Positions 48,001 through 51,000 of a DNA stretch of 64,000 bases are shown in pieces. Source of the DNA: Pecten maximus (lineage: Eukaryota); the NCBI RefSeq assembly GCF_902652985.1, contig NC_047016.1, positions 3,844,001 through 3,908,000 of the forward strand, in the 5' to 3' direction. Position numbers: made by a program. Position 1 is the stretch's first letter, and the number at the start of each line of letters is the position of its first letter.

Positions 48001-51000
48001 GTAAATGAAATAAAAGCATGGTTAAAAAAAGTGTTTTTGAAAATGTTTGAATAATGACAATAAATATTATATATTAAGTAATCCCTCCATCTCTTACCGG
48101 ACGGATCAGTACTGGCCATCATTTATACATTTAATATTGTATATTAAGTAATCCCTCCATCTCTTACCGGACGGATCAGTACTGGCCATCATTTATACAT
48201 TTTATATTGTATATTAAGTAATCCCTCCATCTCTTACCGGACGGATCAGTACTGGTCATCATTTATACATTTAATATTGTATATTAAGTAATCCCTCCAT
48301 CTCTGACCGGACGGATCAGTACTGGCCATCATTTATACATTTAATATGTATATTAAGTAATCCCTTCATCCCTTACCGGACGGATCAGTACTGGCCATCA
48401 TTTATACATTTAATATTGTATATTAAGTAATCCCTCCATCTCTTACCGGACGGATCAGTACTGGCCATCATTTATACATTTAATATTGTATATTAAGTAA
48501 TCCCTCCATCTCTGACCGGACGGATTAGTACTGGCCATCATTTCCACATTTAATATTGTATATTAAGTAATCCCTCCATCTCTTACCGGACGGATCAGTA
48601 CTGGCCATCATTTATACATTTAATATTGTATATTAAGTAATCCCTCCATCTCTTACCGGACGGATCAGTACTGGCCATCATTTCCACATTTAATATTGTA
48701 TATTAAGTAATCATTCCATCACTTACCGGACGGATCAGTACTGGCCATCATTTATACATTTAATATTGTATATTAAGTAATCCCTCCATCTCTTACCGGA
48801 CGGATCAGTACTGGCCATCATTTATACATTTAATATTGTATATTAAGTAATCCCTCCATCCCTTACCGGACGGATCAGTACTGGCCATCATTTATACATT
48901 TTATATTGTATATTTATTAATCCCTCCATCACTTACCGGACGGATCAGTACTGGCCATCATTTATACATTTAATATTGTATATTAAGTAATCCCTCCATC
49001 CCTTACCGGACGGATCAGTGCTGGCCATCATTTCCACATTTACACCACAAGCCTGCTGGTGATGATCGTTACATATGATGGGAACAGTGGACTCCAAAGT
49101 AACCTCCTGTTCGGGTCCTTTCTCGTCAACCGTGATGGAATTGTTGTGCACCTAAAATAAGATACCTTTTCTATGGTGATAATGACCATTCAACGTAGCA
49201 CACTGGTTTTATTGTGATGTTTTACATCTTAATGCCATACATTACAAGTGCAATACTTCGATACATGTAAACAAGGATACTCCAATGGTTCCCGACCTGG
49301 ACTAATACTTTTAACACCTACACTTATATACATATACTTATATACCTATACTTGTATACCAATACGTGTATCCCCCATACTTATATACCAATACTTGTAT
49401 CACCCATACTTGTATACCCATACTTGTATACCCATACGTGTATCCCCCATACTTATATACCAATACTTGTATCACCCGTACTTGTATACCCCATACTTGT
49501 ATCACCCATACTTGTATACCCCATACTTGTATACCCATACTTGTATACCCATACTTGTATACCCATACTTGTATCACCCATACTTGTATATTCATACTTG
49601 TATACCCATACTTGTATCACCCATACTTGTATACCCCATACTTGTATACCCATACTTGTATCAGCCATACTTGTATACCCATACTTGTAAACACATACTT
49701 GTATGCCCCATACTTGTATCACCCATACTTGTAACACCCATACTTGTATACCCGATACTTGTATCACCCATACTTGTATATCCATACTTGTAACACCCAT
49801 ACTTGTATCCCCCATACTTGTATACCCATACTTGTATACCCATACTTGTAACACCCATACTTGTATCCCCCATACTTGTATACCCATACTTGTATACCCA
49901 TACTTGTATACCCCATACTTGTATCACCCATACTTGTATACCCCATACTTGTATACCCATACTTGTATCACCCATACTTGTATATCCATACTTGTATCAC
50001 CCATACTTGTAACACCCATACTTGTATACCCGATACTTGTATCACCCATACTTGTATATCCATACTTGTAACACCCATACTTGTATACCCATACGTGTAT
50101 CCCCCATACTTATATACCAATACTTGTATCACCCATACTTGTATACCCCATACTTGTATCACCCATACTTGTATACCCCATACTTGTATACCCATACTTG
50201 TATCACCCATACTTGTATACCCCATACTTGTATACCCATACATGTATACCCATACTTGTATCACCCATACTTGTATATCCATACTTGTATACCCATACTT
50301 GTATACCAATACTTGTATACCCATACTTGTATACCCATACTTGTATAACCCATACTTGTATACCCATACTTGTATCACCCATACTTGTATACCCATACTT
50401 GTATACCCATACTTGTATCAGCCATACTTGTATACCCATACTTGTAAACACATACTTGTATGCCCCATACTTGTATCACCCATACTTGTAACACCCATAC
50501 TTGTATACCCGATACTTGTATCAGCCATACTTGTATACCCATACTTGTATACCCATATTTGTATACCCCATACTTGTATACCCCATACTTGTATACCCAT
50601 ACTTGTATCACCCATCATTGTAACACCCATACTTGTATACCCATACTTGTATACCCATACTTGTATACCCCATACTTGTATACCCATACTTGTATACCCA
50701 TACTTGTATACCCATACTTGTATACCCCATACTTGTATACCCATACTTGTATACCCCATACTTGTATACCCCATACTTGTATACCCATACTTGTATACCC
50801 ATATTTGTATACCCCATACTTGTATACCCATACTTGTATACCCATACTTGTATCACCCATACTTGTAACACCCATACTTGTATCACCCATACTTGTATAC
50901 CCATACTTGTATCACCCATATTTGTATACCCATACTTGTTTACCCATACTTGTATACCCATACTTGTATACCCCATACTTGTATACCCATACTTGTATAC

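What the first reader, a model, noticed from the sequence alone, without database searches (positions are those of the whole stretch)
48065..49041. Thirteen 70-bp copies of exon end plus donor
Seen: each unit has about 34 nt of exon (..NVEMMASTDPS-G) and about 36 nt of intron. All copies keep GT (two read GTCAG). All copies share a C>T change (gcact>gtact) relative to the true exon, while two retain the exon-type gtggaa variant, implying one founding duplication and later homogenisation. The unit is out of frame and read-through stops at 48945.
Basis: seen in the sequence. Interest (0 to 1): 0.65.

Follow-up and report, generated by a model that had tools for sequence, protein, structure and literature searches.

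The report
Splice-donor minisatellite in a scallop gene
A 70-base piece spanning the end of an exon and its splice donor has been copied 13 extra times into the following intron of a king-scallop gene; this kind of repeat is already known from human genes such as F7, but here it recurs at four donors of one gene.

Summary
Window 48063-49042 is a 70-bp x 14.0 tandem array. On the minus strand, unit 0 is the real 3' end of exon 5 (49007-49151) plus the donor of a Pecten maximus VWDE-like gene. Units 1-13 are intronic copies, and all 13 keep GT.

This is a known kind of structure. Human F7 IVS7, IFI6, CBS, LMNB2 and PDGF carry minisatellites whose first monomer spans an exon-intron boundary (PMC1557585).

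The copied donors show no sign of selection:
- In this array the donor 9-mer varies in 6/117 cells against 16/793 elsewhere.
- In a sister array of the same gene, GT changed in 3/74 cells against 57/1406 elsewhere.

Any use of a copied donor brings in a TGA stop at 48945-48947.

The new point is that the same gene has three more donor-seeded arrays: 47 bp x 40, 58 bp x 4 and a decayed 20 bp x 15.6. That makes 4 of 18 donors against about 0.5 expected, and 0 of 19 acceptors. Tandem arrays fill 43% of its intron sequence.

The most likely reading is a young, neutral minisatellite from slippage or unequal exchange, with splicing from the first donor. RNA evidence was not available.

The parts
49007..49151 (-). 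Exon 5 (145 nt, ends in phase 1) of a VWDE-like gene of Pecten maximus. Its last 34 nt form the exon part of the repeat unit.
   Evidence: tblastn of P0001 residues 232-279 gives 100% identity at 49151-49008. Acceptor ttttag| lies at 49152-49153 and the donor follows 49007. Orthologues P0002 and P0003 are 74% and 72% identical. No Pfam family matched.
49005..49006 (-). Authentic donor GT (CCG|GTAAGG), which matches 7 of 9 positions of MAG|GTRAGT.
   Evidence: The annotated protein and both orthologues continue from here into exon 6.
48062..49040 (-). The 14 units in donor register. Unit 0 is 49040-48971 (the true junction). Copies 1-13 are 48970-48062 and each carries a copied donor.
   Evidence: TRF 48063-49042, period 70, 14.0 copies, 95% matches. 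Unit table. Copied donors match 6-8 of 9 consensus positions, and copies 1 and 4 (GTAAGT) match one more than the true site.
48945..48947 (-). TGA stop in the read-through frame. It lies in copy 1, upstream of copy 1's donor at 48936.
   Evidence: ORF 48945-49151. For each of donors 1-13 the extended exon has its first stop at codon 69.
42236..42429 (-). Exon 6, the partner of the exon 5 donor. Intron 5 is about 6.58 kb.
   Evidence: tblastn residues 280-347 at 42436-42233, 97%. Canonical acceptor tatcag|AT read. Orthologues read DPN-DVSTT across this join.
45147..47249 (-). Reverse-transcriptase ORFs of a non-LTR-type retroelement inside intron 5. The same 28-bp array flanks it on both sides (43979-44761 and 47193-47589).
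   Evidence: Pfam RVT_1 E=9.9e-13 and 2.3e-17. TRF rows.
60481..62357 (-). Sister array 1: 47 bp x 40. The unit is the last 33 nt of the D8C exon (..TPGCHMAYCAG) plus 14 nt of intron (GTAAGT..). The true donor follows 62324.
   Evidence: TRF, sequence, unit alignment, Pfam D8C_UMOD E=1.9e-11 on the exon.
41238..41467 (-). Sister array 2: 58 bp x 4. The unit is the last 47 nt of exon 7 (..GDPHVYQIDSSR) plus 11 nt of intron (GTAAGGACAGG). The true donor G is at 41420.
   Evidence: TRF, units printed in register, tblastn repeats of residues 352-372.
21688..21996 (-). Sister array 3 (old, 75% matches): 20 bp x 15.6. The unit is about 7 nt of the exon 16 end (TTAAAAG) plus GTAAATCA... 8 places keep GGTAA, including the true donor after 21992.
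   Evidence: TRF, sequence and GGTAA positions.

Best explanation
This is a young intronic minisatellite whose founding unit happened to span the exon 5 / intron 5 junction of a king-scallop VWDE-like gene.

Origin (inferred). A 70-bp segment (34 nt of exon, 36 nt of intron) was duplicated in tandem. The breakpoints share a short imperfect match (TA|AATGT at the start, TT|ATTGT after the last unit). The array then grew and was partly homogenised by replication slippage and unequal exchange between units.

State of the units. Unit 0 stays the working exon end and donor. Selection on the protein keeps it, because the common GTATAA variant would put a stop codon into the exon. Units 1-13 are intron sequence that carries 13 copied donors.

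Splicing (inferred by analogy with human F7 IVS7, not shown). The most upstream donor is the one normally used. Any use of a copied donor adds about 70n nt (70n minus 1 from copy 10 on) and a TGA stop, so such transcripts should be unproductive and probably degraded.

The copied donors are not maintained by selection. They persist because the array is young.
For: Shown:
- Array and register.
- Exon identity and junction.
- The exon end predates the array. The same residues are present in Mizuhopecten and Argopecten orthologues, while the units are 95% alike.
- The unit occurs nowhere else in the window.
- All extended exons carry a stop at codon 69.
- Donor positions are no better conserved than the rest: 6/117 vs 16/793, and in the 47-bp sister array GT 3/74 vs 57/1406.
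- All four allele combinations occur at two pairs of variable sites, which implies exchange between units or recurrent mutation.
- Minisatellites are the rule in this gene. 26 arrays cover 17965 of 42214 intron nt, and all 13 introns of 647 nt or more hold at least one.
- The paralogue at 2213-3019 has the homologous donor in single copy with a 300-nt intron.

From the literature (PMC1557585; abstract, introduction and discussion read): such arrays exist in human F7, IFI6, CBS, LMNB2 and PDGF. In F7 only the most upstream donor is used.
Against: - No RNA data could be consulted, so which donors are used is inference from mammalian work and from the annotated protein.
- Copies 1 and 4 (GTAAGT) match the consensus at one more position than the true site, so some use of them is plausible.
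- Four of 18 donors of this one gene sit in such arrays against about 0.5 expected. Pure chance seeding does not explain this well.
- Copy number rests on a single assembly.
Confidence: 0.8

Rival explanations
1. Donor-seeded birth. In this genome, 5' splice sites are preferred places for minisatellites to arise. One route would be transcription- or splicing-coupled DNA damage at the exon-intron junction. Another would be selection that tolerates donor-side duplications but removes acceptor-side ones. The 70-bp array would be one product of that bias. This concerns origin and is compatible with the array being neutral today.
For: - 4 of 18 donors lie in arrays (3 clear, 1 decayed) and 0 of 19 acceptors do.
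- The expected number of founder units spanning a donor is 0.43-0.56. Poisson P(>=3) is 0.01-0.02 and P(>=4) is 0.001-0.0025.
- In 13 introns with arrays, the first array is nearer the donor than the last array is to the acceptor in 9, with 1 tie (Wilcoxon p=0.02, sign test p=0.27).
Against: - This is a post hoc test on one gene in one window.
- 4 vs 0 donors against acceptors is not significant on its own.
- The other 18 of the 22 arrays scanned (four small ones were dropped) carry no sense-strand donor-like motif at the chosen cut, apart from 2 weak hits in one of them.
- The units show no unusual DNA structure that could drive slippage (z -0.68, -1.21, +0.41, +1.34).
Confidence: 0.15
2. Functional array. 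The iterated donors would be kept because they do something. They might bind U1 snRNP to protect the long, A/T-rich intron from premature cleavage and polyadenylation. Or they might divert part of the transcripts into unproductive, stop-containing isoforms as a way to tune expression.
For: - 13 of 13 copies keep GT, and 11 match the consensus as well as or better than the true site.
- The same design recurs at four donors of the gene.
Against: - Donor positions vary at least as much as other positions in both arrays tested.
- In the 47-bp array, 3 of the 37 regular copies have lost GT. By my reading, so have the two degenerate half-units left out of that count.
- In the 20-bp array only 8 places of about 15.6 copies keep GGTAA, and one of them is the true donor.
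- The paralogue works with a single donor.
Confidence: 0.07
3. Assembly artefact. The array, or its copy number, would be produced by mis-assembly of a repeat.
For: Nothing positive. There is only one assembly, and tandem arrays are error-prone.
Against: - The units differ from one another at specific positions and one is 69 nt long.
- The array is only 980 bp.
- Three other arrays of the same design with unrelated units lie in the same gene.
Confidence: 0.03

Closest known systems
Human F7 intron 7 37-bp VNTR (Borensztajn et al. 2006, PMC1557585)
   Same: It is a minisatellite whose first monomer spans the exon-intron boundary, so the authentic donor is followed by copies of itself in the intron. 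In F7 only the most upstream site is used, and the pseudo-sites are functional but silent.
   Different: - The F7 unit holds 4 nt of exon and 33 nt of intron, with 5-9 repeats. Here the unit holds 34 + 36 nt, with 14 repeats.
- The F7 pseudo-sites are identical to the true site. Here they differ at +6 (and at +3 in two copies), and two are closer to the consensus.
- Donor usage and polymorphism are shown for F7 and are untested here.
- This case is a mollusc, not a mammal.
Human IFI6 (6-16) intron 2, CBS intron 13, LMNB2 and PDGF intron 4 minisatellites (as listed in the introduction of PMC1557585)
   Same: All have the first monomer on an exon-intron boundary and reiterated donors (25 pseudo-sites in 6-16; 15-20 repeats in CBS; 100-bp x 10-15 in LMNB2; 81-bp x 16-18 in PDGF).
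   Different: - In 6-16 and CBS the two nearest pseudo-sites are also used. Whether that happens here is unknown.
- In each human example that paper names one intron. Here four donors of one gene carry such arrays.
Minisatellite-filled introns of mouse pseudoautosomal genes (PMC13050634, passages read)
   Same: Almost all introns are occupied by tandem repeats, which the authors attribute to frequent recombination and unequal crossover. Here 43% of intron sequence is in arrays.
   Different: - The mouse arrays are largely one family (mo-2 and mo-2-like). Here nearly every array has its own unit, made of local sequence.
- The passages I read do not mention donor-spanning units.
Intron creation by internal tandem duplication of an AGGT-containing segment (recalled from the literature, not read here)
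   Same: A tandem duplication duplicates splice signals inside a gene.
   Different: There the duplicate supplies a new donor-acceptor pair and a new intron. Here the unit has a donor only, no acceptor, and lies in an existing intron.

Membership tests
Donor-reiterating intronic minisatellite (F7 IVS7 type) | Head-to-tail array of a 10-100 bp unit | tested here: met
   Period 70, 14.0 copies, 95% matches.
Donor-reiterating intronic minisatellite (F7 IVS7 type) | The first monomer spans an authentic exon-intron junction | tested here: met
   The exon is 100% identical to annotated protein residues 232-279 and ends at 49007. GT lies at 49006-49005 and the next exon is found at 42236-42429. Orthologues conserve the exon end.
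Donor-reiterating intronic minisatellite (F7 IVS7 type) | The donor sequence is repeated in the downstream monomers | tested here: met
   13 of 13 copies keep GT, 11 of 13 read GTAAG, and they match 6-8 of 9 consensus positions.
Donor-reiterating intronic minisatellite (F7 IVS7 type) | Splicing uses the most upstream donor (with at most the nearest pseudo-sites in addition) | not testable with these tools
   No transcript reads were available. The only support is indirect: the annotated protein and the orthologues join exon 5 to exon 6 from the first donor.
Donor-reiterating intronic minisatellite (F7 IVS7 type) | Copy number varies between alleles (VNTR) | not testable with these tools
   Only one sequence of this locus was available.
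Recursive splice site (ratchet point) | An acceptor AG juxtaposed to a donor GT, behind a pyrimidine tract | tested here: not met
   All units read CCG|GT, with no AG before the GT.
Short-range tandem alternative 5' splice sites | Donors a few nt apart giving near-identical, often in-frame isoforms | tested here: not met
   Spacing is 70 nt, and every extended exon has a stop at codon 69.
Intron creation by internal tandem duplication | The duplicated unit supplies both a donor and an acceptor that bound a new intron | tested here: not met
   The unit holds a donor only. The sole AG-containing stretch (GGCCAG) has no pyrimidine tract before it (reading). At sister array 1 the intron position is shared with the paralogue. 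The age of intron 5 itself was not tested.
Dispersed satellite or transposon-borne array | Copies of the unit at other loci | tested here: inconclusive
   There are none elsewhere in the 64-kb window. The rest of the genome could not be searched.

The most novel reading that the evidence does not exclude
In the king scallop, 5' splice sites are hot spots for the birth of minisatellites. Exon-end-plus-donor units are amplified far more often than random intron segments or acceptors (4 of 18 donors in this one gene). That would point to a mutational link between splicing or transcription at the junction and tandem duplication, or to selection for iterated U1-binding sites in long, repeat-filled introns.
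Probability: 0.15. Interest if true: 0.7.

Novelty: new member of a known kind. Interest (0 to 1): 0.4.

Why it matters
**Splice-site choice.** Arrays of identical donors are natural experiments on how the spliceosome chooses a 5' splice site, and the human F7 array was used for exactly that. This scallop gene offers four such experiments in one transcript: 14, 40, 4 and about 8 donors, with units of 70, 47, 58 and 20 nt. It does so in an invertebrate, where the 'first donor wins' rule has not been tested as far as my searches show (searches found no mollusc case).

**Annotation.** Such arrays are a practical hazard, because split-read aligners and gene predictors can place the junction on any copy.

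**Origin of the arrays.** If the excess at donors holds genome-wide, it would say something new about where minisatellites come from.

Tried and rejected
- **Hairpin-driven slippage or masked donors.** The RNA fold of exon 5 plus three units gave z = -2.06 (4 of 100 shuffles fold as well), and the small stem around the donor is the same in the true and copied units. DNA folds of four units gave z = -0.68, -1.21, +0.41 and +1.34. I dropped the idea.
- **Known RNA family in the repeat.** Rfam at gathering threshold on 41000-63000 gave 0 matches.
- **All intronic arrays carry donor-like motifs.** I scanned 22 arrays on both strands with a weight matrix built from the gene's 18 donors. Only the four junction arrays scored on the sense strand (11, 3, 5 and 33 hits), plus 2 hits in the array at 24698. 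Five other arrays scored on the antisense strand (1, 12, 3, 1 and 6 hits). There is no general pattern. The matrix is crude, and most GTAAGA copies of the 70-bp array fall below the cut.
- **A fifth case at exon 18.** The 29-bp x 35 array at 19901-20924 starts 15 nt after the donor and its unit holds CAG|GTACCC. It is not in register with the junction, so I left it uncounted.
- **Intron loss in the paralogue.** The tblastn hit running through residue 103 is read-through into the intron, and it includes a stop. The donor is at the same place as in the main gene.
- **Recursive splicing, short-range tandem donors and intron creation.** These are covered in the membership table.
- **Not possible here:** comparison with other scallop genomes or other P. 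maximus haplotypes (no eukaryotic DNA collection was on hand), and RNA-seq junction counts. Supplementary files of papers were not consulted.

Full report
**What the window is**

The window has no N, is 35.6% G+C and is full of tandem arrays. The translated exon at 49008-49151 (minus strand) was searched on its own against longer proteins. It found 3 proteins at E <= 0.01 among 5 candidates:
- a 972-aa 'von Willebrand factor D and EGF domain-containing protein-like' of Pecten maximus (P0001; 98% identity, full coverage);
- its orthologue in Mizuhopecten yessoensis (P0002, 74%);
- its orthologue in Argopecten irradians (P0003, 72%).

The window is therefore king-scallop DNA, not human. I mapped P0001 back onto the window with tblastn and obtained 19 exon blocks on the minus strand, from 62579 down to 17446. 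Most are 97-100% identical, and the lower values come from alignments that run past exon ends.

Exons were sent to Pfam and to the protein search one at a time. I did not build or search a joined coding sequence. Junctions were read by eye against P0001.

**The observation**

TRF reports one array at 48063-49042: period 70, 14.0 copies, 95% matches. On the minus strand the string CCGTCCG|GT occurs 14 times at 70-nt steps, with one step of 69.

- Unit 0 (49040-48971) is the last 34 nt of exon 5 (..NVEMMASTDPS, then the G of a split codon) plus the first 36 nt of intron 5.
- Units 1-13 repeat this down to 48062.

- 13 of 13 copies keep GT, and two read GTCAG.
- 13 of 13 have T for the exon's C. 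This is a synonymous AGC/AGT difference.
- Copies 5 and 7 keep GTGGAA, and 11 read GTATAA.
- The read-through frame ends at TGA 48945-48947.

The intron part of the unit occurs only inside the array, with 12 matches against 0 in shuffles.

**Direction of copying**

The exon came first. The residues encoded by the exon end are conserved in the two other scallops, whereas the units are still 95% alike. The flanks show no further similarity to the unit (19 and 16 of 70 positions). The two breakpoints share only a short imperfect match.

**Are the copied donors conserved?**

In the 70-bp array, among the 13 copies:
- The donor 9-mer (-3 to +6) has 6 variant cells of 117, and the other 61 columns have 16 of 793 (Fisher p=0.052, with the donor more variable).
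- No GT cell changed, but at the overall rate that outcome has P=0.53. The array is too young to give the test power.

The 47-bp array of the same gene is older (88% matches) and gives more power. It has 37 regular copies; two degenerate half-units were left out.
- GT changed in 3 of 74 cells, against 57 of 1406 at the other aligned positions (p=1).
- The donor 9-mer is more variable than the exon-derived part (26/333 vs 34/1147, p=2e-4).

Cells are not independent events, because copies share descent. Still, nothing points to selection keeping the donors.

**Consequence for the message**

Use of any copied donor lengthens exon 5 by about 70n nt (70n minus 1 from copy 10 on, because copy 9 is 69 nt). 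It always brings in the TGA at codon 69 of the extended exon. The copies match the consensus MAG|GTRAGT at 6-8 of 9 positions. The true site matches 7, and copies 1 and 4 match 8.

Which donor is used could not be checked. The annotated protein and the orthologues use the first one.

**Known precedent**

A full-text search led to Borensztajn et al. 2006 (PMC1557585). I read the abstract, introduction and discussion.

- The paper describes the human F7 intron 7 37-bp VNTR, whose first monomer spans the exon 7 boundary.
- It lists the same layout in IFI6 (6-16), CBS, LMNB2 and PDGF.
- In F7 only the most upstream donor is used, although the pseudo-sites are functional.
- In 6-16 and CBS the two nearest pseudo-sites are also used.

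The scallop array is therefore a new member of a described kind. Searches for a bivalve or mollusc report of it found none (listings and abstracts only).

**What is new: the same thing four times in one gene**

| Donor of | Array | Unit and copies | Exon + intron nt in unit |
|---|---|---|---|
| D8C exon (true donor after 62324) | 60481-62357 | 47 bp x 40 | 33 + 14 |
| Exon 5 (this finding) | 48063-49042 | 70 bp x 14 | 34 + 36 |
| Exon 7 (donor G at 41420) | 41238-41467 | 58 bp x 4 | 47 + 11 |
| Exon 16 | 21688-21996 | 20 bp x 15.6, decayed | about 7 + 13; GGTAA kept at 8 places |

So 4 of 18 donors lie in an array that starts on them, and 0 of 19 acceptors do.

The gene is saturated with minisatellites:
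- 26 TRF arrays cover 17965 of 42214 intron nt (43%).
- All 13 introns of 647 nt or more hold at least one array, and none of the 5 shorter introns does. This used 22 arrays, after dropping four small or low-complexity ones.

If founder units fell at random in the intron sequence, with every array collapsed to one unit, 0.43-0.56 would span a donor. Poisson P(>=3) is 0.01-0.02 and P(>=4) is 0.001-0.0025.

Arrays also tend to lie nearer the donor end of introns. The donor side is nearer in 9 of 13 introns, with one tie (Wilcoxon p=0.02, sign test p=0.27).

These tests are post hoc and rest on one gene. The exon coordinates used were off by 1-3 nt at three junctions, which does not affect the counts. 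I take the excess as suggestive, not shown.

**Controls and dead ends**

- The paralogue at the low end of the window (exon 2531-3019, minus strand) has the homologous D8C-exon donor in single copy, with a 300-nt intron and no array. The 47-bp array therefore arose after the two genes separated.
- The other arrays of the gene do not carry sense-strand donor-like motifs.
- The units have no unusual fold.
- Rfam finds nothing.

**Verdict**

It is a young minisatellite seeded on an exon-donor junction, of a kind known from several human genes. It is most likely neutral and spliced from the first donor.

What raises it above routine is the recurrence at four donors of one gene. That makes the gene a compact natural test of 5' splice-site choice in a mollusc, and it hints at a donor bias in minisatellite birth.

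The following stayed unchecked:
- transcript evidence;
- allelic variation;
- other scallop genomes;
- the genome-wide frequency of such arrays.

Noticed in passing
window 60481-62357 (-): A 47-bp x 40 array made of the last 33 nt of the D8C-domain exon plus its donor GTAAGT. It has a higher-order period of about 189 bp. Three of the 37 regular copies have lost GT, and by my reading so have two degenerate half-units.
   Followed up: yes
window 41238-41467 (-): A 58-bp x 4 array made of the last 47 nt of exon 7 plus 11 nt of intron. That gives three extra donors (GTAAGG, GTAAGG, GTAAGA).
   Followed up: yes
window 21688-21996 (-): A decayed 20-bp x 15.6 array whose unit resembles the exon 16 end plus donor (TTAAAAG|GTAAATCA). 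GGTAA is kept at 8 places.
   Followed up: partly
window 19901-20924 (-): A 29-bp x 35 array that begins 15 nt after the exon 18 donor. Its unit holds CAG|GTACCC but is not in register with the junction. It may be an old fifth case and was not counted.
   Followed up: partly
window 17446-62716: 43% of the intron sequence of this gene lies in tandem arrays, almost every one with its own unit. Every intron of 647 nt or more has at least one.
   Followed up: partly
window 43979-44761, 45147-47249, 47193-47589: Reverse-transcriptase ORFs (Pfam RVT_1) of a non-LTR-type element lie between two blocks of the same 28-bp array. This looks as if the element inserted into an existing array in intron 5.
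   Followed up: no
window 42429-42436 (-), join of exons 5 and 6: The NCBI protein reads DPS-VS-DVSTT. That needs six more bases (TATCAG) than the canonical acceptor tatcag|AT allows, and it gives an intron ending in AT. The two orthologues read DPN-DVSTT, which fits the canonical site. This is either a model quirk or a sequence difference, and it is unresolved.
   Followed up: partly
window 62580-62716 (-): The annotated protein starts at a Met inside the D8C exon. The open frame continues upstream to an acceptor (cttcag|) at about 62717 and matches the N-terminal parts of the orthologues (..ADECTNYDT..RSTLF..). The model is therefore probably 5'-truncated, and the signal-peptide exon lies further upstream.
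   Followed up: partly
window 2213-3019 (-): The first two exons of a tandem paralogue (71% identical over the D8C part). It has the same intron position, a single donor, a 300-nt intron and no array.
   Followed up: yes
window 1-744 (+): Open frames that, from recall, read like the reverse transcriptase / RNase H part of an LTR-type retroelement, cut by the window edge. They were not searched.
   Followed up: no
window 13793-14936: A 44-bp x 26 array in the spacer between the two VWDE-like genes. Its minus-strand unit holds AAG|GTAAAA. No exon was found next to it.
   Followed up: no
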